Shown here piece by piece: positions 13,627 to 21,900 of a stretch of 34,163 nucleotides of DNA. Under the pieces are notes generated by a model. That model was not told the origin of the DNA. It saw only the letters and a program-made list of their open reading frames with translations, and made no database searches. The DNA comes from a virus (Duplodnaviria > Heunggongvirae > Uroviricota > Caudoviricetes): the IMG/VR virus record IMGVR_UViG_3300025288_001461; one strand, written 5' to 3'. Both the position numbers and the translations under genes were made by a program. How positions within the stretch are numbered: position 1 is the first letter of the stretch; every line of letters begins with the position of its first letter.

Positions 13627-15117
13627 TTAAGAGTTAGGATGTTCTTTTGAATCTAATAATATGGCTGGACTATCTGCCTTAATAAATCCCCATTCTAAGT
13701 CAAGATTTTTTAATCCTGTAGTTATTATATCTCCAAGAAAATCAACAGCTTGCCCATTATTTACCTTGATTATTCCATTTTCATAGTTAAGAGAAACTTT
13801 AAATTGTTTAGGATTTTCTGTTGGAATAACATCTTGATTTAATTTGTTATTTTGACTTAAAAGATTATTTGCCATTTGAGCAAGTTCACCATCAGCAGTT
13901 AAACTAGCACCAAATTTACTTTGTCCTGAAATTGTAAAGTCTTTACCTAATAGAGTTGGTAAAATTTCATAATGACCATTAAAATCAATAGAATTATCTT
14001 GGTTTTTAAATTTAATTTTATCAATACTAAAACTTAAGCCAGATTTAAGACTATCAATAATGGTTATGTTTGCATCCGCTTGGTCTTTTTCAGAAAAGTT
14101 AATACCTGATGCATACATTGTTGTCGCTTTCTTATATAGGGTCATCATTTTATTGTCGATTCCATTAATGGAGTATCCAAGTTCAAAAGAAGATTTTTTT
14201 TGATTTAATATAGTTAATTCACTAACTTTAGAATCAAATTTTATATTAAATTTATTATTTATATTATTGACAGAAGCAAATAATTCAATTCCATTAACAG
14301 TAAAGGCATCTGTTCCATTATTAATTGTTGCCATTTTAAGAACAAACTCCCCCAATGCTAAACTGTTAATATTAAAGTTATGACTACCATTTATTCCGGA
14401 TGCAACAAGTTTATCTGTGGAGTCTTCCAAATCTTCAGCCGTAATAGATGCATATTTAAAATTATTCTTAATGTCTCCAGTTTTACTAGTGAAAGTTAAA
14501 TCACCCCAAGCACCAATAAAAGAAACAATCATTCCTGTTTCACCAATTGGTTTAACTGGTTGTGTGGTAGGCTGTGATTTATCTATAGAAATAGAAGATA
14601 TAGCTGGTTCTTGAGTTTCAATAGAAGGTTTTATTGGTAATGTATCGTAATTTGTTTTTGCAATGACAAAACTAAAGTCATTAATAAGATAAGTAGAGGA
14701 AATACTTCCATCTTCTTTAATTAAGCCATTGATTTCAATGATATTATCTTCTTTAGATTTTAATTTTGTTTTCTTAATGAATTCACCATCAACTTTACCT
14801 TTAGCAGTAAATTTAATGTCACCACCAAAAAAAGAATAGAAATCATGTGATGCTTTATATTTAAATATAATATTACCATTGTAATCTGTAGTATCTTTTT
14901 CTGAAAAAGATAACTTATAAGTTCCCGTAGATTCAAATAAACCATTTTCAGAACTAATCTGTTCAAATTTTAATTGTGCTAATAGATTACTATTAACTTT
15001 TTGCATGTTTTTAACCATAGAGGCTTCTCTATTCTCCATGTTGGCTTTAGCTAAATATGTAATGCCACCTAATGAAATCATAACTATTACTAAACCACCA
15101 ATGATTTTTTTACTCAT
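13627..15117 (-). CDS. YdgA/DUF945-like membrane-anchored exported protein
   Basis: Likely ATG at 15117 after GGAGA. MSKKIIGGLVIVMISLGGITY anchor, then GLFESTG, a long beta-rich body, and a C-terminal ..YENGIIKVN typical of DUF945. Confidence 0.65.
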   Translation of the reverse strand: MSKKIIGGLVIVMISLGGITYLAKANMENREASMVKNMQKVNSNLLAQLKFEQISSENGLFESTGTYKLSFSEKDTTDYNGNIIFKYKASHDFYSFFGGDIKFTAKGKVDGEFIKKTKLKSKEDNIIEINGLIKEDGSISSTYLINDFSFVIAKTNYDTLPIKPSIETQEPAISSISIDKSQPTTQPVKPIGETGMIVSFIGAWGDLTFTSKTGDIKNNFKYASITAEDLEDSTDKLVASGINGSHNFNINSLALGEFVLKMATINNGTDAFTVNGIELFASVNNINNKFNIKFDSKVSELTILNQKKSSFELGYSINGIDNKMMTLYKKATTMYASGINFSEKDQADANITIIDSLKSGLSFSIDKIKFKNQDNSIDFNGHYEILPTLLGKDFTISGQSKFGASLTADGELAQMANNLLSQNNKLNQDVIPTENPKQFKVSLNYENGIIKVNNGQAVDFLGDIITTGLKNLDLEWGFIKADSPAILLDSKEHPNS

Positions 15118-15198
15118 ATATTTCTCCAATTGTGATTTATCGTATAGTAAAACTTAAAAGAATCAATGATATTTTGCTGTTTTTTTAGAAATAATGAA

Positions 15199-16929
15199 CT
15201 AAATTTTTATTTTCTTTTTTTCTATAACATTATTTTCTGTCATCGTATGGGATAAGCAAATTTTATTTAAATAATTATATAAATTCATACTACCTTCATA
15301 AAAGTTAATTTTCTCATCAGTAATAGATTGATGATTTAATTTTTCTAACGCAAGATTCCAATTTAATGTTTTATCCGTAGCACAATAATCAATCATTGTC
15401 ATATATAATTGATATCTTTCTGTTGATTCTTTAATTTTTTTTGTTCCATAAAAATCAAAAAGCTGAGAAACTATTTGAAAATATTTTCCTCTATAATCAA
15501 TTTCTAAATTATCATTTTGAGATAGTAAAGATAAATGTTCATCAATTAAAAAAATAGATTTTCGTGAAAAAGATTCATTGCTTAAATAGACATTAAAATT
15601 TATTTCTCTTTCTTTCAAATAGGTTGAAGAATAAGTTGTACTTGGAGCATAAACCGGAGCAAAAAAAGTTTGTTCTAAAATATTGCTAATTAATTGGAGT
15701 TTTTTATTAATTCCTGTTTTTTCCAAGTTTTGTTTACTAAATTTTTTAGAAAGGATTTCTAAATCGTCATAGTTAATATTTAATATTGAATTATATTTTG
15801 CTTCTCCAGTAGTCAGGATTAATGCGAAATTATTATATGTTGTCCCATTATTGTCTGTTTTTTGTTCAAATAGCTTTTGTAAAAATGTTTTATATTCAAT
15901 TTTATTTTCACTTAATAAAGTTTTAAAATCCTTATTGTCAGTATTTGAATCTAAAATAGAAGAAAGAAAAATTGTATTGCTTATTGGAAAGTAGTCAAAA
16001 ATATCAGCACCATTATTAAGTAGTTTTTTAAAAATAATTGGATTTTTATGTTCAGAAGAATAAGCCCACAATGGAATTTCTTCTGGGAAATAAGATGAAA
16101 TGTTACTTGTTCCATGTTTATTTAGTGCTACTTTTAATAGGTCAAAGTTTTTTGTTTGAGATAAAGTTCTAGCAATAATTGTTTCTTTACCAAAATCAGT
16201 AACAAGGGGGAAAATAGTTTCAATAAATGATATCACTAAAGGAATATCAATTTTTTCTTGATTTAAATGATAATTCATCCAACTATCAGACTTGGTTTCA
16301 AGTGAAGAGTATGTTATTTTTGAGTAAACATCTAGTAGCAATGGATTTTTTAAACAATATTTAAAAAAAGCCTCATCTAAAGATAGCTCATCTTCAAATC
16401 CATGCACTTTTTTAGGTTCATAGGTTGCTAAAGAGCTTAATATAAAGTATTCATTTTTAAGTTCTGAAAGACTATTGTGAAATCCATTTTTAAAAAGAGA
16501 TAATACTAGTGGTTCTATTAATATTTTTGTTTTTTCCTCATCTTTTAATTTTGAAATAGAATAATCTTTTAGAATGGTAGAAAATTGTTTATCATTAAGA
16601 TAAGGTAGTAAAAAGAAAATAATTGGAGCATCATTTGGAATTTGAGAGTCCCAAAACTTATTAAATTTGGTAATTTTTTTGTCATCAATTTCTATATAGT
16701 TTCTAATTAAGTTTAGATTGCGACTAATCATTAAATCAAAAAGAAAGTTTTTATCTTCTTCTTTATCAACGATAGAAAACATATTTATTATAAAATTTGA
16801 ATCATTTAAAAGATTACCTGGAGAATCAAGACTAGATAATGCAAGTTTAAATAAAGAAAATGTATCACCATTAGAAAAATCAATTAATGATTTTTGAATG
16901 TTATCTTCATTTATATAATTAAATCGCAT
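15199..16929 (-). CDS. Large hypothetical protein with degenerate ankyrin-like repeats, ending KKKIKI
   Basis: 576 aa. The segment PLWAYS..HKNPIIFKKLLNNGADIF is ankyrin-like. Confidence 0.7.
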   Translation of the reverse strand: MRFNYINEDNIQKSLIDFSNGDTFSLFKLALSSLDSPGNLLNDSNFIINMFSIVDKEEDKNFLFDLMISRNLNLIRNYIEIDDKKITKFNKFWDSQIPNDAPIIFFLLPYLNDKQFSTILKDYSISKLKDEEKTKILIEPLVLSLFKNGFHNSLSELKNEYFILSSLATYEPKKVHGFEDELSLDEAFFKYCLKNPLLLDVYSKITYSSLETKSDSWMNYHLNQEKIDIPLVISFIETIFPLVTDFGKETIIARTLSQTKNFDLLKVALNKHGTSNISSYFPEEIPLWAYSSEHKNPIIFKKLLNNGADIFDYFPISNTIFLSSILDSNTDNKDFKTLLSENKIEYKTFLQKLFEQKTDNNGTTYNNFALILTTGEAKYNSILNINYDDLEILSKKFSKQNLEKTGINKKLQLISNILEQTFFAPVYAPSTTYSSTYLKEREINFNVYLSNESFSRKSIFLIDEHLSLLSQNDNLEIDYRGKYFQIVSQLFDFYGTKKIKESTERYQLYMTMIDYCATDKTLNWNLALEKLNHQSITDEKINFYEGSMNLYNYLNKICLSHTMTENNVIEKKKIKI

Positions 16930-16931
16930 AA

Positions 16932-16972
16932 AAAAATCCCTCTGTTAATTTAATTTTAACAAAAGGATTTTT
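16932..16972 (-). terminator. Hairpin/terminator after secA, overlapping the SD of the 16929 gene
   Basis: mRNA AAAAAUCCUUUUGUUAA-loop-UUAACAGAGGGAUUUUU forms a 17-bp stem with two G.U pairs. Its U-run leads directly into the ATG. Confidence 0.65.
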
Positions 16973-16989
16973 AAAGTAAACAATAAAAG

Positions 16990-19854
16990 TTATTCTACTA
17001 CATCTTCTTCTTCAATAAAAATTGTTTCAGGAGTATTGCTTTGAATAAAGTTTTTAACATTTGCAAAATCAATAATGGTTCTTTGTTTAAATTCATTTAC
17101 CATAGAATTAAAAGAATCAAAACAAAGTTTTTTAAATTCATTAATTGGGTTTTTTTGAGCTAATGAACTAAATGCAACATTTTGTCTTGAATCATCTACG
17201 AAAACAAGATGGTCAATCCATTTTTTATCTAGCTCCCTAATTGAAATATAATTAAGATTATCAAAAACTTCTAATTCGTGAGTGCGTATAATTGTTGAAA
17301 TCTTGGCTTCAATAATATCAATTAGATTTGGTTTAATAGTTTTCATATTGTTATATGGTCGTTCATTTAAAAAGTTTTCACTATACCTATTTATTTCTTC
17401 AATAGGAAAATCAAGAACAGTATTAAGCAAAGTCTTTGAATCATCTATACCTAATTTTAATTTTTCATCCATAAAATCAATAAAGTCATCATGAGCAAGA
17501 GGTAGCATCATATCAAATAAGGCAGATTGTAATATTCCTTTAATTGTATTTGAATCTTCAAGTAAAGCATTGCGTAATTTCAAAAATTGTCTTCTGCCTT
17601 CATCGGCAATACTATCATATTGAAATGTATCTTTTCTAGAATTAAAATGATGTGACTCAATACTTCTTTGTGCTTTAGCAAATGCTTTTGTAACCATTGG
17701 TGATGAAATTGCTTCATTAGGAGGAAGTGTTTTAGCTAAGTGATTAAAGATTGGATTCTTACCAAAGATATTAACCCAAGGGTCCTCAATACTAAGATAA
17801 AAACATCCCTCACCAGGATCTCCTTGTCTTCCTGCTCTGCCTCTTAATTGGTCATCAATTCTTCTAGATTCATTTCTAGAACTACCTAAAACAAACAGTC
17901 CACCAAGAGAAATAACATGTTCTCTCCACTTTTGACTAGAAGACTCAACAATGGTTATTTGTTTGACTACACTTCTTTCAAGTATAGCTAAATGATGTTT
18001 TATAAAATATAAACCTTGTTGTAATATTCCTGGGATATGTTCAGAATTATATAGATAACCAATTTGTTCTTGAACTTCATTGTGATCAATGTGAGCATTA
18101 GAAAGTTTAATTAATTCTTCTTCTGAAACATTTTCTTCATGATTAATTTCGTTTCCATCTGAATCTTTATTTAGATTGAGTTGTTCAATAAGAGAGTAAA
18201 AAAATAATCTTCTTTCTGTAATTGAAGTAAGTTGTTCATTTAATATTCCTAATAGAGCATCTTTATTTCCACCTAAAATAATATCTGTTCCTCGTCCTGC
18301 CATACTAGTAGAAACAGTCACAGCAAATGGTTGACCCGCTTGAGCAATAATTTGTGCTTCTCTAAAGTTATTTTTTGCATTCAAAACATGATGTGGAATT
18401 TTTTTATTTTTTAATAGTTCACTAATTATTTCTGATTCTGAAACACTTGTTGTTCCAATTAAAATTGGTTGACCATTACTATGTCTAGTGTAAATGTCGT
18501 CAATAATGCCTTGATATTTTGCATTAAGATTAAGATATATTTTATCATTATGATCTTTACGAATCATTTTTTTGTTTGTTGGAATTTGAAGAGTATTTGT
18601 ATTATAAATTTGTTCAAATTCTTCACTGCTATTCATTACTGTTCCACTCATTCCAGAAATCTTTACATAGTTTCTAAAGTAATTTTGAATAGATATACTT
18701 CCAAGAGTCATGGTTTCTGGATTTATTTCAACACTTTCTTTAACTTCAATTGCTTGATGTAACCCATTAGACCATGTTCTTCCTTGAGATAATCTTCCGG
18801 TATTTTGGTCAACAATAATAATTTCGTTTTCACTAACAATATAATCTTTATCTTTAATATAACAATATTCAGCTTTTAATGCATTTAAAACTTCATGTAT
18901 AATCCAAGAATTATGATTTTGATAAAGGGAAGATAAGTGCTGTTGTAGTGTGTTGTGTTCTATATCTATCGTAATTAGGGCATTTTGAAGAGCAAGTTTT
19001 TCAAGGGTTATATATCCTTCTTCACTTAAGTAAACAGTTTTAAATTTATCATCAACCCAAAAATCACCAGGTGGAATTTCTTCTAAATCAAGAAAACTAT
19101 CACTAGGAGCTTTAGCCATTTTAGTTAATTGTTTAGATATGTCTTTAATCATAATATACATTGAAAATTCTTTAGCTGGTGCTTCACCAGAAATAATTAA
19201 AGGTGTTCTGGCTTCATCAATTAAAATAAAATCAGCCTCATCAATAATAGCTTTAACATTGTCAAAATTTAATGGTTGTATTTTTTCATCAAGAGAATAA
19301 ACTAAGTTATCACGCAAAAAATCAAACCCTAACTCTTGTGCTGTAGAATAAAGAACATCAGCTTTATATGATTCTTTCTTTTGGTGTTTTTCCATTTTAG
19401 ACGAACATGAGCTACTAGAAATCCCAAGGAAAGAATAAAGTTCGGCTAGTGTTTGTTGGTCACGTTGTGCTAAATAGTCATTAGCTGTTGCAACATGAGT
19501 AGAATATCCAAGCACAAAATTAGCAGCTACAGCAGCACTACAAGTTAAAGTTTTACCTTCACCTGTTTTCATTTCTGCTATACATCCATCTACAAGTGCA
19601 AGAGCACCTATAAGTTGAACATCATAATAAGAGATGCCAAGAATATGTTGAGATGCTTTTCTTGAAATCGCCAGAGCATGTAATATTTTTTCTTTATTAC
19701 TTATTGCTGTTGTATTTTTAATGTCTAAAAGTTTATCTTTTAAATTAGAAGGAAGAACATGATTGTATATTGTTTCTTCAAAATAATGTATTTTTTTAAT
19801 TAAAGAATCATATTTCTTTAGGTTTTTTTGATTGAAAAATTGAGTAAGGTTCAT
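16990..19854 (-). CDS. secA: Preprotein translocase ATPase SecA (divergent, no C-terminal zinc-binding tail)
   Basis: EMKTGEGKT, ATANDYLAQRD, ELGFDFLRDN, IIDEADFILIDEARTPLIISG, GRTWSNGLHQAIEVKE, MAGRGTDIILGG, ESRRIDDQLRGRAGRQGDPG. Confidence 0.97.
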   Translation of the reverse strand: MNLTQFFNQKNLKKYDSLIKKIHYFEETIYNHVLPSNLKDKLLDIKNTTAISNKEKILHALAISRKASQHILGISYYDVQLIGALALVDGCIAEMKTGEGKTLTCSAAVAANFVLGYSTHVATANDYLAQRDQQTLAELYSFLGISSSSCSSKMEKHQKKESYKADVLYSTAQELGFDFLRDNLVYSLDEKIQPLNFDNVKAIIDEADFILIDEARTPLIISGEAPAKEFSMYIMIKDISKQLTKMAKAPSDSFLDLEEIPPGDFWVDDKFKTVYLSEEGYITLEKLALQNALITIDIEHNTLQQHLSSLYQNHNSWIIHEVLNALKAEYCYIKDKDYIVSENEIIIVDQNTGRLSQGRTWSNGLHQAIEVKESVEINPETMTLGSISIQNYFRNYVKISGMSGTVMNSSEEFEQIYNTNTLQIPTNKKMIRKDHNDKIYLNLNAKYQGIIDDIYTRHSNGQPILIGTTSVSESEIISELLKNKKIPHHVLNAKNNFREAQIIAQAGQPFAVTVSTSMAGRGTDIILGGNKDALLGILNEQLTSITERRLFFYSLIEQLNLNKDSDGNEINHEENVSEEELIKLSNAHIDHNEVQEQIGYLYNSEHIPGILQQGLYFIKHHLAILERSVVKQITIVESSSQKWREHVISLGGLFVLGSSRNESRRIDDQLRGRAGRQGDPGEGCFYLSIEDPWVNIFGKNPIFNHLAKTLPPNEAISSPMVTKAFAKAQRSIESHHFNSRKDTFQYDSIADEGRRQFLKLRNALLEDSNTIKGILQSALFDMMLPLAHDDFIDFMDEKLKLGIDDSKTLLNTVLDFPIEEINRYSENFLNERPYNNMKTIKPNLIDIIEAKISTIIRTHELEVFDNLNYISIRELDKKWIDHLVFVDDSRQNVAFSSLAQKNPINEFKKLCFDSFNSMVNEFKQRTIIDFANVKNFIQSNTPETIFIEEEDVVE

Positions 19855-19860
19855 TTATGG

Positions 19861-19918
19861 CTCCATATAAGTTTGTTTTTGTTTTGAAAGTAAATTTTTA
19901 AAAAACACTTATATGGAA
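19861..19918 (-). promoter_or_regulatory. mRNA hairpin sequestering the secA Shine-Dalgarno
   Basis: Perfect 10-bp inverted repeat TCCATATAAG (19862-19871) / CTTATATGGA (19908-19917), extendable by about 7 bp across a 2-nt bulge. The 5' arm holds the upstream ORF's stop and the 3' arm holds UAUGGAG, 6 nt before the secA ATG. Confidence 0.75.
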
Positions 19919-20328
19919 TAGGAATAAAAATATATTTTATAGTAGTTGGAATGAAATATTTTATTAATTGATTTTATTTTATAAAAAATATTTTTTTGTA
20001 TTTTTAGTTTAAGATTTAAAAAATAAGTAAATATTTTACTTAATTTGATTTTATTTAGTGTGTGTTTCTTTTGTAATTTTTTAGCTAATACTAAAGAAGA
20101 AAGAAGAATAAATAAGGTTTTCACTAAATTTAAATATTCAAAAAATTCTTTTTCAGTAGATTTTTCTGTAATATTAATTGATTTTATAGGTGAATTTAGT
20201 TTTATATTTTCACTATAAGAATCATGTTTTATATAGCTTTCTGAATTAATAGCTCCACCAAAAAACAAATAAATATTTGTTAGCATCAGTGATGGAAAAA
20301 GTAAAGCTCTTTTGAGTGTTATGTTCAT
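19909..20328 (-). CDS. secA leader ORF (139 aa) with a signal-peptide-like N-terminus, a second hydrophobic helix and a basic tail
   Basis: ATG 20328: MNITLKR-ALLFPSLMLTNIYLFFGGA, then LVKTLFILLSSLVLA. The extra 15 codons in the ORF track overlap the promoter. Confidence 0.6.
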   Translation of the reverse strand: MNITLKRALLFPSLMLTNIYLFFGGAINSESYIKHDSYSENIKLNSPIKSINITEKSTEKEFFEYLNLVKTLFILLSSLVLAKKLQKKHTLNKIKLSKIFTYFLNLKLKIQKNIFYKIKSINKIFHSNYYKIYFYSYSI

Positions 20329-20333
20329 TTTAA

Positions 20334-20363
20334 AATTTATACAAAAAATCAAAAAAAAGTCAA
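20334..20363 (-). promoter_or_regulatory. sigma70-type promoter giving a probable leaderless mRNA
   Basis: TTGACT (20363-20358), 18 nt, TAAATT (20339-20334), then 5 nt to ATG 20328. No SD present. Confidence 0.55.
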
Positions 20364-20540
20364 ATAAAAACAAAATTTGACTTTTAAAATATGAAAGTCT
20401 GTTACAGTGTGATTTTTTTTATATATAGTAACGGTGTTATTTCTAGTTTTGAGTTTTTTAAACTTTTTCATCATAATTAGTTATTTTAATAAATGTAGTG
20501 ATTTAAGTAGCTAATAAATTGTGTGATTAAGGTGTATTTA

Positions 20541-20569
20541 TTGACTAAAAATTGTTTTATATATATAAT
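20541..20569 (+). promoter_or_regulatory. sigma70-type promoter of the Ter biosynthetic operon
   Basis: TTGACT (20541-20546), 17 nt, TATAAT (20564-20569). AGGAG SD before ATG 20593. Confidence 0.8.
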
Positions 20570-20592: not shown

Positions 20593-21900
20593 ATGATATT
20601 CCAAAAAGGTCAAAAGGCAAAAATTCAAGATTTAGGTGTAGGTGAATCATTTGTTGTTAAGTGTTATATTAAAACTAACTTATCTATTGATATGACTTGT
20701 TTTGGTGTTGATGAAAATAACAAATTAAGTGATGATAGATATATGATTTTTTATAATCAAAAGGCATCTCCAGGTGGTGAAGTTAAGCTAACAAAAGATT
20801 CTCCAGATACAGAATTCCAAGTATCATTAAGTAATTTACCTTCTTCAATTGTTAAATTATTTTTTACTGCAGCAATTGATGGAAGTCAGACAATGAATCA
20901 AATAAGTTCTTTAGATTTTGCTATTGGAGAACACACATTTAATTTAACTGGTTCTGATTTTAATCAAGAAAAAGCAATTATTATTGCAGAAATATATAAA
21001 AAAGATGGTGTATGGCGGGTTGGAGCAGTAGGCCAGGGATTTAATGGTGGCTTAAATGCTTTACTAACTTATTTCGGTGGAGAAGTGGCTGAAGAAAAGA
21101 AGGAAAGTCCTCCAATAAAATTATCTACTGTTGATTTAAATAAGAAAGTTTTCTTGGAAAAAAGAATAAATTTAGAAAAATCTTTAGAAACAAGTTCTCC
21201 GAAATTATTAAATTTATCTAAGAAAGCGGCTATATCTCTAGAGAAAAAAGGTCTTGGTGAACATAAGGCTAAGGTTGCATTATGCTTAGATATATCTGGC
21301 TCTATGGCAAAAATTTATGCTAGTGGAGCAATTCAAGAATTTGCAGAAAGAATTTTAGCATTAGGGTGTAGGCTTGATGATGATGGAAGTATTGATGTTT
21401 TCTTGTTTGGTGAAAATGGCTATCAACCTAATGCATTAACTGTAACAGATTTTCCTGGATATGTTACAAGAATGTTAAAGGTAAATAAATTAGAAGGTGA
21501 TACTAAATATTCAAAAGCAATGGAATTAGTAAGAAAATTTTATACCCCATCATATAAATATGAGAGGTCTGAGCCTCTATGTTTAGATACTCCAATATAC
21601 ATTATGTTTTTAACTGATGGTCAACCTTCAGATAAAATGGCGGCTACAAAAGCTTTAAAAAATGCATCATATGAGCCAATATTTTGGCAATTCATGGGAA
21701 TTAAAGGTGGTGGTTTTTCTACTCCAGATTTTAGTTACCTAGAGAAGTTGGATGACTTAGAGGGGCGTTATGTTGATAATGCTGATTTTTTTAGTGTTGG
21801 AAATATAGCAGAAATAAGTGATGATGTTCTTTATGAAAAATTAATGAACGAATATCCAAACTGGTTAAAAGAGGCAAAGATTAAAGGTTTATTAGCGTAA
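20593..21900 (+). CDS. TerD-domain plus vWA (TerF C-terminal type) protein
   Basis: TerD-like N-domain (DDRYMIFYNQKASPGGEV, AEIYKKDGVWRVGAVGQGFNGGL). vWA MIDAS motifs LDISGSM, GDT, FLTDG, then PIFWQFMG and DNADFF. Confidence 0.9.
   Translation: MIFQKGQKAKIQDLGVGESFVVKCYIKTNLSIDMTCFGVDENNKLSDDRYMIFYNQKASPGGEVKLTKDSPDTEFQVSLSNLPSSIVKLFFTAAIDGSQTMNQISSLDFAIGEHTFNLTGSDFNQEKAIIIAEIYKKDGVWRVGAVGQGFNGGLNALLTYFGGEVAEEKKESPPIKLSTVDLNKKVFLEKRINLEKSLETSSPKLLNLSKKAAISLEKKGLGEHKAKVALCLDISGSMAKIYASGAIQEFAERILALGCRLDDDGSIDVFLFGENGYQPNALTVTDFPGYVTRMLKVNKLEGDTKYSKAMELVRKFYTPSYKYERSEPLCLDTPIYIMFLTDGQPSDKMAATKALKNASYEPIFWQFMGIKGGGFSTPDFSYLEKLDDLEGRYVDNADFFSVGNIAEISDDVLYEKLMNEYPNWLKEAKIKGLLA

What the first reader, a model, noticed from the sequence alone, without database searches (positions are those of the whole stretch)
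19852..20363. secM-like secretion monitor with no known arrest motif controlling the accessory secA
Seen: a probably leaderless 139-aa ORF with a signal-like N-terminus ends 55 nt before secA. Its last codons and UAA form the 5' arm of a hairpin (10-bp perfect, about 17 bp total) whose 3' arm is the secA SD (UAUGGAG). Established: in E. coli secM-secA, and analogously mifM-yidC2 and vemP-secDF2, a stalled ribosome on an exported leader melts an SD-occluding hairpin so the translocase gene responds to secretion stress. Known arrest motifs include RAGP and RAPP-like sequences. Seen: this leader ends ...KIFHSNYYKIYFYSYSI with no such motif. Inference: an independently evolved monitor with a new aromatic-rich arrest sequence, or simple termination-coupled unfolding. 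An alternative frame (..IPTTIKYIFIPIPY..) runs through the hairpin and stops in an ATGA overlap with secA.
Basis: partly seen in the sequence, partly recalled or inferred. Interest (0 to 1): 0.8.

Follow-up and report, generated by a model that had tools for sequence, protein, structure and literature searches.

The report
Leaderless small gene gating secA translation
A conserved small membrane-protein gene sits just before a divergent secA export-motor gene, and the RNA around its stop codon folds back to hide secA's ribosome-binding site; this is the wiring of the SecM secretion monitor, but with an unrelated peptide whose ability to stall ribosomes is untested.

Summary
The 139-aa ORF (19909-20328, minus strand) is a real gene. 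In 12 of 13 related secA loci from uncultured AT-rich bacteria, a 99-202-aa homologue lies directly upstream of secA.

All 12 share three features:
- A promoter placed so that transcription should start at the ATG (leaderless).
- An N-terminal hydrophobic segment, a second membrane helix and a basic, aromatic-rich tail.
- A stem pairing the last codons and UAA with the secA Shine-Dalgarno (SD) sequence.

The arm sequences differ between lineages but stay complementary. The predicted probability that the SD guanines pair with the stop region is 0.85-1.0 in all 12 loci. In 46 other gene junctions of the same loci the median is 0.002.

I conclude that secA translation is gated by ribosomes reaching the end of the upstream ORF. 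The gene meets all four published bioinformatic criteria for a Sec monitoring substrate. It has no RAGP/RAPP-type motif. Actual stalling cannot be tested here; I put it near 35-40%.

"Accessory" secA is unproven because no genome is held. The alternative-frame/ATGA idea is rejected. This scan found comparable SD-hiding upstream ORFs before on other DNA (known secDF families), but not this family.

The parts
20358..20363 (-). -35 hexamer TTGACT of the operon promoter
   Evidence: Read from sequence and found by the promoter scan. TTGAC[AT] lies 28-31 nt before the small ORF's ATG in 12 of 12 loci, against 3 of about 140 other ORFs.
20335..20343 (-). Extended -10 element (TGtATAAAT). Its last base is 7 nt before the A of the ATG, so the transcript should begin at or next to the AUG (leaderless). 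No SD precedes the ORF.
   Evidence: Sequence. The same geometry holds in relatives. Most other genes in the window carry GGAG/AGGA 6-10 nt before the ATG. The start site itself is inferred, not measured.
19909..20328 (-). Small ORF, 139 aa: a conserved leaderless gene for a small membrane protein, the candidate leader or monitor of secA
   Evidence: ORF list. Syntenic homologues of 99-202 aa occur upstream of secA in 11 other loci. The profile search finds only 19 representatives in 1.84 billion proteins. Codon-position substitution pattern is coding-like. No Pfam or NCBIfam family.
20248..20307 (-). Residues 8-27: N-terminal hydrophobic segment (signal-anchor or signal peptide), the most conserved part of the family (consensus LLLPSLLLxNAYL)
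   Evidence: Alignments A1, A5, A7. Hydropathy. AF2 helix 3-22, pLDDT about 87. No conserved AXA or lipobox site; this is read from the alignment.
20134..20247 (-). Residues 28-65: poorly conserved, net acidic or neutral loop, predicted periplasmic
   Evidence: Loop net charge is -1 to -6 in the 11 loci where two hydrophobic segments were detected. AF2 pLDDT is below 50 for residues 28-52.
20083..20133 (-). Residues 66-82: second hydrophobic (transmembrane) segment
   Evidence: Hydropathy in all 12 homologues. It lies within the AF2 helix 58-137.
19912..20082 (-). Residues 83-139: basic (net +12), aromatic-rich tail, predicted cytoplasmic. Residues 114-136 (19921-19989) form the conserved block IKSIxKxFHSxYxKIYFYS. 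The motif K-hydrophobic-[YFH]-x-x-S-[LF] has its K at -7 or -9 from the stop in most of the 18 aligned members.
   Evidence: Alignments A5 and A7. Charge analysis. AF2 continuous helix, pLDDT 81-96. No Pro and no RAGP/RAPP motif.
19900..19918 (-). 5' arm of the SD-occluding stem: last three and a half codons, the UAA stop (19909-19911) and 9 nt downstream. It contains the anti-SD UUCC.
   Evidence: An equivalent arm lies at -25 to +9 nt around the stop codon in all 12 loci.
19880..19899 (-). 20-nt A/U-rich loop of the stem
19861..19879 (-). 3' arm of the stem, containing the secA Shine-Dalgarno GGAG (19861-19864), 6 nt before the ATG
   Evidence: The SD guanines are predicted paired to the stop window with P = 0.86 here and 0.85-1.0 in all 12 loci.
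16990..19854 (-). secA, 954 aa: all four SecA Pfam domains, no SEC-C zinc tail. Member of a divergent clade 50-72% identical within itself and about 39% identical to enterobacterial SecA.
   Evidence: Pfam. Homologue search. tblastn. NCBIfam scores are below the cut-offs of canonical SecA (786 < 814; 760 < 800) and far below all SecA2 models.
13627..16929 (-). Downstream genes kept in synteny: a 576-aa protein of no known family (15199-16929) and a DUF945 protein (13627-15129). They probably belong to the same operon.
   Evidence: The homologue of the 576-aa protein follows secA in 9 of 11 related loci (not L013 or L095). DUF945 proteins follow it in six loci by Pfam, and unannotated ORFs of similar size in the others.

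Best explanation
This is an upstream-ORF-gated translational switch on secA.

Shown or directly computed:
- One promoter is placed so that the mRNA should begin at the AUG of a 139-codon gene for a small two-helix inner-membrane protein.
- The secA Shine-Dalgarno sequence, 54 nt downstream, is locked in a stem whose other strand is the last codons plus the UAA of that gene.
- Both features are conserved in 12 of 13 related loci, and the arm sequences co-vary.

Inferred:
- A ribosome that reaches the last codons or the stop codon covers and melts the 5' arm. This frees the SD for a new 30S subunit. SecA synthesis therefore follows translation of the upstream ORF to its very end, and how long ribosomes dwell there.
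- The dwell time may be lengthened by the conserved basic, aromatic C-terminal peptide and shortened by membrane insertion of the nascent chain. That would make it a true SecM/MifM-type monitor. I put this at about 35-40%. It is not required for the coupling.
For: - Window hairpin: 12 + 6 bp including UAA and GGAG, z = -3.1.
- MFE folds of 12 homologous junctions pair the SD with the ORF's stop region, or within 30 nt upstream of it, in every locus.
- Partition-function probability that the SD guanines pair with the window stop-30..stop+12 is 0.85-1.0 in 12 of 12 loci. In 46 other same-strand junctions of the same loci the median is 0.002 and the mean 0.11 (Mann-Whitney p = 8e-8).
- RNAduplex energies of the small-ORF/secA junctions take the six best places, and seven of the best eight, among 66 junctions.
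- Cognate arm pairs bind better than non-cognate ones (-10.8 vs -8.1 kcal/mol; 0 of 20,000 permutations reach the observed sum). Examples: UUCCAUAUAAG/CUUAUAUGGAG here, CUCUCCAA/UUGGAGAG in L009, AUCCAUAA/UUAUGGAU across a 188-nt spacer in L095.
- Leaderless promoter geometry in 12 of 12 loci, while most other genes carry normal SDs.
- The ORF is coding and conserved.
- The 5' arms end between -11 and +9 nt from the stop. By my reckoning from the usual ribosome footprint on mRNA, that is within reach of a ribosome with the stop codon in its A site.
- Precedent: the secM-secA stem that sequesters the secA SD and is disrupted by the ribosome at the secM 3' end (PMC7897499).
Against: - There are no expression data. 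No RNA run is listed for this DNA, so the transcription start, co-transcription and SD occlusion in vivo are all predictions.
- The sequences are very AT-rich, and G.U-tolerant U-runs offer several alternative anti-SD partners. The exact register is therefore uncertain in some loci.
- One clade member (L014) has no upstream ORF and no stem, so the device is dispensable.
- With spacers of 54-188 nt the coupling cannot be simple termination-reinitiation. A briefly terminating ribosome may open the stem too short a time to matter unless it pauses. That pause is the untested step.
Confidence: 0.72

Rival explanations
1. Secretion or insertion monitor proper. The conserved C-terminal peptide arrests its own ribosome at or just before the UAA. 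The arrest is released when the nascent chain is inserted by this SecA/Sec pathway, so SecA output rises when that pathway is failing. This would be a new proline-free arrest class.
For: - All four published screening criteria are met: an unannotated small upstream ORF of secA, an N-terminal signal or TM, a conserved C-terminal sequence, and a spacer over 30 aa (criteria in PMC10987492; data).
- The SD-sequestering stem that SecM is described as using is present and conserved. That MifM and VemP use one too is my own knowledge.
- The motif K-hydrophobic-[YFH]-x-x-S-[LF] keeps a nearly fixed distance to the stop, with K at -7 or -9 in most members.
- Non-RAPP Lys/aromatic arrest peptides exist. 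Some stall at termination with UAA in the A site, as CliM does (PMC13183943). Stop-dependent classes such as uA_NSP-stop are also known.
- The tail of about 50 aa after the second membrane helix would place that helix just outside the tunnel when the ribosome is at the stop (inference).
Against: - Arrest is unmeasured.
- The last 3-5 residues, and probably the S-[LF] of the motif, are dictated by the anti-SD RNA arm rather than by the peptide.
- The N-terminal helix is more conserved than the tail, which is unusual for a pure monitor.
- Short forms (P0134/L094, P0142; L012) lack most of the conserved tail yet keep the stem.
- A second membrane helix is not found in SecM or MifM.
Confidence: 0.37
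2. Plain translational coupling to a working partner. The small protein is a functional membrane subunit, for example an anchor or regulator of this SecA or of the downstream 576-aa and DUF945 proteins. The stem only ensures that SecA is made together with it. No nascent-chain arrest is involved.
For: - Protein-level constraint is strong on the N-terminal helix (substitutions by codon position 274/136/397).
- AF2 predicts a confident 80-residue helix running from the second membrane segment into the cytoplasm.
- The block small ORF-secA-576-aa homologue is fixed in 10 of 12 loci, including this window, while the genes upstream of it change.
- Stem-mediated coupling between operon genes is common (general knowledge).
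Against: - There is no detectable family or structural analogue.
- Conserved long-range pairing across 54-188 nt is not the usual geometry of coupling between subunit genes.
- L014 keeps secA without the small gene.
Confidence: 0.4
3. The stem has no translational role. It could be an mRNA-stabilising or processing hairpin, a transcription attenuator, or composition-driven chance, with secA translated independently.
For: - In AT-rich RNA the few G and C bases tend to find each other in folding programs.
- 5 of 46 control junctions also exceed P = 0.5.
- Some relatives have extra inner hairpins in the spacer.
Against: - 12 of 12 independent junctions against a control median of 0.002.
- Cognate arms bind better than non-cognate arms, with different arm sequences in different lineages.
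- No terminator-like site is found and no Rfam family matches.
- The paired element is always the SD itself.
Confidence: 0.06

Closest known systems
secM-secA of E. coli and other Gammaproteobacteria (secretion monitor)
   Same: A small exported or membrane-targeted upstream ORF lies directly before secA. The secA SD is sequestered in a stem whose other strand lies at the 3' end of the upstream ORF, and a ribosome at that 3' end opens it (PMC7897499).
   Different: No sequence similarity and no Pfam SecM hit. No FxxxxWIxxxxGIRAGP motif and no Pro in the tail. The upstream ORF is leaderless and encodes two hydrophobic helices rather than a cleavable signal. The 5' arm contains the stop codon itself. 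Arrest has not been demonstrated.
MifM-yidC2 (Bacillus) and VemP-secDF2 (Vibrio)
   Same: Same logic: a membrane- or export-targeted leader whose 3' end controls an SD-occluding stem of a translocase gene. Like MifM, the product is a small membrane protein with a cytoplasmic C-terminal tail.
   Different: Different target gene and unrelated sequences. MifM has a single N-terminal TM and an acidic multisite arrest region, and VemP has a cleavable signal.
[quoted passage not shown] 2024, PMC10987492; CliM paper PMC13183943)
   Same: Arrest peptides without a RAPP-type motif. CliM uses a Lys/aromatic motif a few residues from the C-terminus, and C. difficile CliM stalls at termination with UAA in the A site. 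The stop-dependent classes need the stop codon. In the present family a Lys/aromatic motif sits 7-9 residues from a UAA that lies inside the regulatory stem.
   Different: The motif is different (K-hydrophobic-[YFH]-x-x-S-[LF], not KYxIW or NSP). CliM precedes yidC in Clostridia. The resemblance is in style only; no homology was detected.
Translational coupling by ribosome-dependent melting of an SD-occluding stem (classic operon and phage examples)
   Same: The downstream SD is base-paired to the end of the upstream cistron, and upstream translation is needed to expose it.
   Different: The upstream cistron is leaderless, the target is secA, the pairing spans 54-188 nt, and the upstream product has the hallmarks of a Sec substrate.

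Membership tests
Sec/YidC monitoring substrates (functional class; screening criteria of Fujiwara et al. 2024, PMC10987492) | (i) Small ORF of no annotated function directly upstream of secA, secDF or yidC | tested here: met
   No Pfam or NCBIfam hit. The ORF lies 54 nt before secA and is syntenic in 12 of 13 loci.
Sec/YidC monitoring substrates (functional class; screening criteria of Fujiwara et al. 2024, PMC10987492) | (ii) N-terminal secretion signal or transmembrane segment | tested here: met
   Basic N-terminus followed by a hydrophobic segment at residues 8-27, seen in all 12 homologues once the L013 start is corrected. AF2 helix 3-22. No dedicated signal-peptide predictor was available.
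Sec/YidC monitoring substrates (functional class; screening criteria of Fujiwara et al. 2024, PMC10987492) | (iii) C-terminal sequence conserved among homologues | tested here: met
   The block IKSIxKxFHSxYxKIYFYS is present in the core group. The K-hydrophobic-[YFH]-x-x-S-[LF] motif is present in nearly all 18 representatives. It is weaker in the short or divergent forms L094, L095 and L012.
Sec/YidC monitoring substrates (functional class; screening criteria of Fujiwara et al. 2024, PMC10987492) | (iv) More than 30 residues between the localisation signal and the end of the conserved C-terminal sequence | tested here: met
   About 110 residues from the first hydrophobic segment and about 53 from the second.
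Sec/YidC monitoring substrates (functional class; screening criteria of Fujiwara et al. 2024, PMC10987492) | mRNA stem sequestering the downstream SD, disrupted by a ribosome at the upstream ORF's 3' end (SecM, MifM, VemP) | tested here: met
Sec/YidC monitoring substrates (functional class; screening criteria of Fujiwara et al. 2024, PMC10987492) | Nascent-chain-dependent arrest of elongation or termination (peptidyl-tRNA accumulation, toeprint) | not testable with these tools
   Needs in vitro translation or toeprinting.
Sec/YidC monitoring substrates (functional class; screening criteria of Fujiwara et al. 2024, PMC10987492) | Arrest released by export or membrane insertion, and the downstream gene induced when the pathway is impaired | not testable with these tools
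   Needs reporter genetics.
SecM family (sequence homologues) | Sequence similarity to SecM and the C-terminal FxxxxWIxxxxGIRAGP arrest motif | tested here: not met
   No Pfam family matches. The tail has no Pro and no RAGP.
RAPP-like arrest peptides (ApdA, ApdP, ApcA, RQH family) and uA_LPPP / uA_NSP-stop | C-terminal R/Q/H-A/G-P-P, LPPP or NSP-stop motif | tested here: not met
   None of the 18 family representatives carries such a motif.
CliM (uC_KYxIW) | K-Y-x-I-W motif, upstream of yidC in Clostridia | tested here: not met
   Different motif and different downstream gene.
Accessory SecA2 (NCBIfam TIGR03714, TIGR04221, TIGR04397, NF012136) | HMM score above the curated cut-off of a SecA2 model | tested here: not met
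   Scores 537, 496, 593 and 481 against cut-offs 930, 725, 1085 and 1100.
Accessory SecA2 (NCBIfam TIGR03714, TIGR04221, TIGR04397, NF012136) | A second, housekeeping secA in the same genome | not testable with these tools
   No genome is held for the window or for the relatives' records.
Canonical SecA (TIGR00963 / NF009538; Pfam SecA domains) | All SecA domains present and an equivalog HMM score above the cut-off | tested here: inconclusive
   All four Pfam domains are present. Equivalog scores fall just below the cut-offs (786 < 814; 760 < 800), and there is no SEC-C tail.

The most novel reading that the evidence does not exclude
The tail is a new, proline-free Lys/aromatic arrest sequence (K-hydrophobic-[YFH]-x-x-S-[LF], 0-2 residues before UAA in most members). 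It stalls the ribosome at or next to termination and is released by Sec-dependent insertion of the two-helix nascent chain. This would be a new class of secA monitoring substrate: leaderless, and dedicated to a divergent SecA lineage in uncultured AT-rich groundwater bacteria.
Probability: 0.35. Interest if true: 0.75.

Novelty: new variant of a known kind. Interest (0 to 1): 0.6.

Why it matters
Monitoring substrates are the known way for bacteria to sense export capacity through the ribosome itself. Finding new arrest sequences is an active field: domain-wide screens in 2021 and 2024, and CliM and LudP in 2026.

This family offers a candidate that passes the field's screening criteria and also carries the conserved, co-varying SD-occluding stem. 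It has no RAPP-type motif, a leaderless start, and a stop codon built into the switch.

If it stalls, it adds a new arrest chemistry and a new design: 70S-initiated leader, two-helix substrate, termination-linked. If it does not stall, it is a clean natural example of long-range, termination-dependent translational coupling that controls a translocase motor.

Either outcome can be tested with short synthetic constructs.

Tried and rejected
- **Alternative frame through the hairpin ending in an ATGA overlap.** It is open for 40 codons only in the window and for 1-21 codons in the relatives, never reaching back into the ORF. The frame offset differs between loci. Rejected as chance.
- **TTG start at 20373.** Rejected in favour of the ATG at 20328, from the alignment and the promoter geometry.
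- **Word-based homologue search of the small ORF.** It found only itself. Homologues appeared only through synteny and a profile search.
- **Complex prediction.** Complex prediction on SecA 1-940 with tail residues 85-139 returned no verdict.
- **ESM Atlas look-alikes of the small protein.** Nothing usable.
- **Rfam.** No match in the region.
- **Terminator scan.** None in the region.
- **Related-loci searches.** The query built from the alignment of the 576-aa protein failed because no block was conserved enough. With a clade-specific SecA block, the metagenome collection gave one clade member (L014) among 80 generic secA loci, and the viral collection gave none.
- **Whole-genome searches for a second secA.** Not possible.
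- **Sequencing runs.** Only DNA runs from groundwater or aquifer metagenomes hold the stretch, and no RNA holder is listed.
- **Ungapped longest-helix registration of the arms.** Unstable because U-runs pair with GGA through G.U. Thermodynamic measures were used instead.
- **TGA recoding as an explanation of nearby broken genes.** I noted the point but did not take it up. secA reads through under table 11 with all six Trp as TGG.

Full report
**What is in the window.** On the minus strand, secA occupies 16990-19854. It encodes 954 aa with all four SecA Pfam domains.
- Upstream of secA, after a 54-nt spacer, a 139-codon ORF runs from 20328 to 19909 and ends in TAA.
- The repeat finder reports inverted arms at 19862-19879 and 19900-19917, 18 nt long, 89% complementary, 20 nt apart.
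- RNAfold pairs UUCCAUAUAAGU, which contains the stop codon, with ACUUAUAUGGAG, which contains the secA GGAG.
- These 12 contiguous pairs are followed by six inner pairs. The MFE is -15.7 kcal/mol against -7.6 +/- 2.6 for dinucleotide shuffles (z = -3.1; 1 of 200 shuffles folds as well).

**The small ORF is a real, conserved gene.**
- A word-based search found only the protein itself.
- The SecA, however, belongs to a clade of about 45 metagenomic proteins 50-72% identical to it. All lack the SEC-C tail, and all come from AT-rich contigs of up to 2.2 Mb.
- I fetched 11 of these loci. Every one has an ORF of 99-202 aa ending 61-188 nt before secA, even where the genes further upstream differ.
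- The products align with the window's protein (alignments A1, A5, A7).
- A profile search of 1.84 billion representatives finds only 19 members. The family is small and confined to this clade.
- Substitutions by codon position are coding-like, 274/136/397 in the N-terminal block and 305/269/398 in the C-terminal block.
- One further clade locus, L014, lacks the ORF. It has a 288-nt AT-rich spacer with its own promoter-like site.

**Architecture of the protein.**
- All members have a basic N-terminus followed by a hydrophobic segment with consensus LLLPSLLLxNAYL. This is the best-conserved part of the protein.
- Next comes a poorly conserved loop of 33-51 aa (about 100 aa in L095) with net acidic or neutral charge.
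- A second hydrophobic segment follows, then a basic tail of about 50 aa (net +6 to +13) in the core group.
- The positive-inside rule suggests N-in, loop-out, C-in. No conserved signal-peptidase or lipobox site is visible.
- AlphaFold2 with the 18-row alignment gives a helix at residues 3-22, a disordered stretch at 28-52, and one confident helix at 58-137.
- The tail carries the block IKSIxKxFHSxYxKIYFYS. Across nearly all members it carries K-hydrophobic-[YFH]-x-x-S-[LF], with the K at 7 or 9 residues from the stop in most members.
- The last three to five residues vary. They are largely set by the RNA arm: UCC, CUC and UUC codons supply the anti-SD.
- There is no Pro-containing RAGP, RAPP, LPPP or NSP motif.

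**The SD-occluding stem is conserved and co-varies.**
- MFE folds of the 12 junctions pair the secA SD with the end of the upstream ORF, at the stop codon or within 30 nt upstream of it, in every locus.
- Arm sequences differ between lineages:

| Locus | 5' arm | 3' arm |
|---|---|---|
| window | UUCCAUAUAAG | CUUAUAUGGAG |
| L009 | CUCUCCAA | UUGGAGAG |
| L095 (188-nt spacer) | AUCCAUAA | UUAUGGAU |
| L010 | UCCAUuuAAGUUG | CAACUUuAUGGA |
| L094 | UUCCAcuUUGUAA | UUACAAuuuUGGAG |

- Cognate 5'/3' windows bind better than non-cognate combinations: mean -10.8 against -8.1 kcal/mol. None of 20,000 permutations reaches the observed sum.
- Against other same-strand gene junctions in the same loci, the small-ORF/secA junctions take the six best duplex energies of 66, and seven of the best eight.
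- The partition-function probability that the SD guanines pair with the window from stop-30 to stop+12 is 0.85-1.0 in all 12 loci. In 46 control junctions the median is 0.002 and the mean 0.11 (Mann-Whitney p = 8e-8).
- The 12 loci represent about ten lineages whose spacers cannot be aligned with one another, so this is not one inherited sequence counted many times.
- No Rfam family and no terminator-like site is present.

**The upstream ORF is leaderless.**
- In the window, TTGACT (20363-20358) is followed after 17 nt by TGtATAAAT (20343-20335). That element ends 7 nt before the ATG, and there is no SD.
- TTGAC[AT] lies 28-31 nt before the ATG in 12 of 12 loci.
- In L013 this required moving the start 18 codons upstream. 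Doing so also restores the family's N-terminus.
- Only 3 of about 140 other ORFs in the same loci show this spacing.
- Most other genes in the window have ordinary GGAG/AGGA sites.
- The transcription start itself is an inference from this geometry.

**Mechanism.**
- Shown by computation: secA's ribosome-binding site is sequestered by the 3' end of a leaderless upstream cistron, and selection maintains that pairing.
- Inferred: a ribosome with the last codons in its P site, or the UAA in its A site, covers the 5' arm. The arms end between -11 and +9 nt from the stop. By my reckoning from the usual ribosome footprint on mRNA, that is within its reach. The SD is thereby freed.
- This is the logic described for secM-secA (PMC7897499).
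- With spacers of 54-188 nt, reinitiation by the same ribosome is unlikely. The output should depend on how long ribosomes sit at the end of the ORF.
- That is where the two sub-models part: a programmed pause caused by the conserved tail (a monitor), or ordinary termination (plain coupling).

**Comparison with what is known.**
- The gene meets the four screening criteria that Fujiwara et al. used to find Sec/YidC arrest peptides in 30,000 genomes (PMC10987492). It also has the SD stem.
- It does not belong to any described class: SecM, MifM, VemP, ApcA, ApdA, ApdP, the RQH groups, uA_LPPP, uA_NSP-stop or CliM.
- CliM shows that a Lys/aromatic motif near the C-terminus can stall ribosomes at termination with UAA in the A site (PMC13183943).
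- Three points speak for a working membrane protein rather than a pure sensor. The N-terminal helix is conserved more strongly than the tail. There is a second membrane helix. Short forms lack most of the tail yet keep the stem.
- My estimates: 35-40% for a true monitor, about 40% for plain coupling to a functional partner, and about 6% for no translational role.

**Is secA accessory?** This could not be tested.
- No genome is held for the window or for the relatives' records.
- The protein scores just below NCBI's cut-offs for canonical SecA and far below all SecA2 models.
- It lacks the SEC-C tail and is only about 39% identical to enterobacterial SecA.
- In 10 of the 12 loci, counting this window, secA is followed by a conserved 551-581-aa protein of no known family. 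DUF945 proteins follow that in seven of them by Pfam.
- This is suggestive of a dedicated system but is not evidence for a second secA.

**Origin.**
- The stretch occurs in many groundwater and aquifer metagenome runs from 2017. No RNA run is listed.
- A PurA found on a contig of the same length as the longest contig carrying this ORF (137,791 nt) is labelled 'archaeon' at NCBI.
- SecA, sigma-70-type promoters, SD sites and DUF945 point to a bacterium.
- Relatives sit on contigs of 0.3-2.2 Mb beside housekeeping genes such as purA and cysS. A cellular genome is therefore more likely than a plasmid or phage.

**Verdict.** I class it as a new variant of a known kind of regulatory device. The scan has met SD-hiding upstream ORFs before on other DNA, belonging to known secDF families, but not this family.

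Noticed in passing
window 13627-19854 (-); L004-L012, L094: The block secA, then a 551-581-aa protein of no known family, is kept in 10 of 12 loci, counting this window, while the genes upstream of the small ORF change. One or two DUF945 paralogues follow in seven of those loci by Pfam, and unannotated ORFs of similar size in the others. The 576-aa protein has no signal peptide and ends in a basic KKKIKI tail. These may be clients or partners of this SecA.
   Followed up: partly
L014:222-509: One clade member has no small ORF before secA. Instead there is a 288-nt AT-rich spacer with a roughly 34-nt direct repeat, a TTGACT...TATAAT promoter-like site about 75 nt before the ATG, and no recognisable SD.
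   Followed up: partly
window 16990-19854 (-): This SecA clade has its own versions of nearly universal motifs: THVATAN[ED]YLA for VHVVTVNDYLA, GSISIQNYFR for ASITFQNYFR, and ISGMSGT for LSGMTGT. It also has an insertion in NBD2 and no SEC-C tail. It scores below the curated cut-offs of all NCBIfam SecA and SecA2 models.
   Followed up: partly
whole record (P0155): The PurA that appears to lie on the same 137,791-nt contig is named 'archaeon' at NCBI. The window's features are bacterial: SecA, sigma-70-type promoters, SD sites and DUF945. The bin is probably mislabelled. Its closest named PurA relatives are Burkholderiales, at only about 50% identity.
   Followed up: no
window 20541-20569 (+) and 20593-21900 (+): A near-consensus promoter (TTGACT, 17 nt, TATAAT) points away from the small ORF. 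It would drive a TerD-vWA (TerF-like) gene that heads an approximately 11-kb Ter cluster (ATP-grasp_Ter, PRTase_2/TRSP, StiP, TerC/DUF475, TerD x2, TelA-like). The same TerD-vWA gene is the divergent neighbour in L004, L005, L006 and L008.
   Followed up: no
L013:5463-5918: The gene call for the small ORF in this relative starts 18 codons too late. The upstream ATG restores both the family's N-terminus (MRNNLRNIFLLNS...) and the TTGACA-29 nt-ATG leaderless geometry.
   Followed up: yes
L010:5923-6000, L013:5918-6000, L012:5934-6000: Several relatives carry an extra, locally strong hairpin inside the loop of the long-range stem, for example ACCCCUU...AAGGGGU in L010. It may simply bring the two arms together. 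None is followed by a U-run.
   Followed up: no
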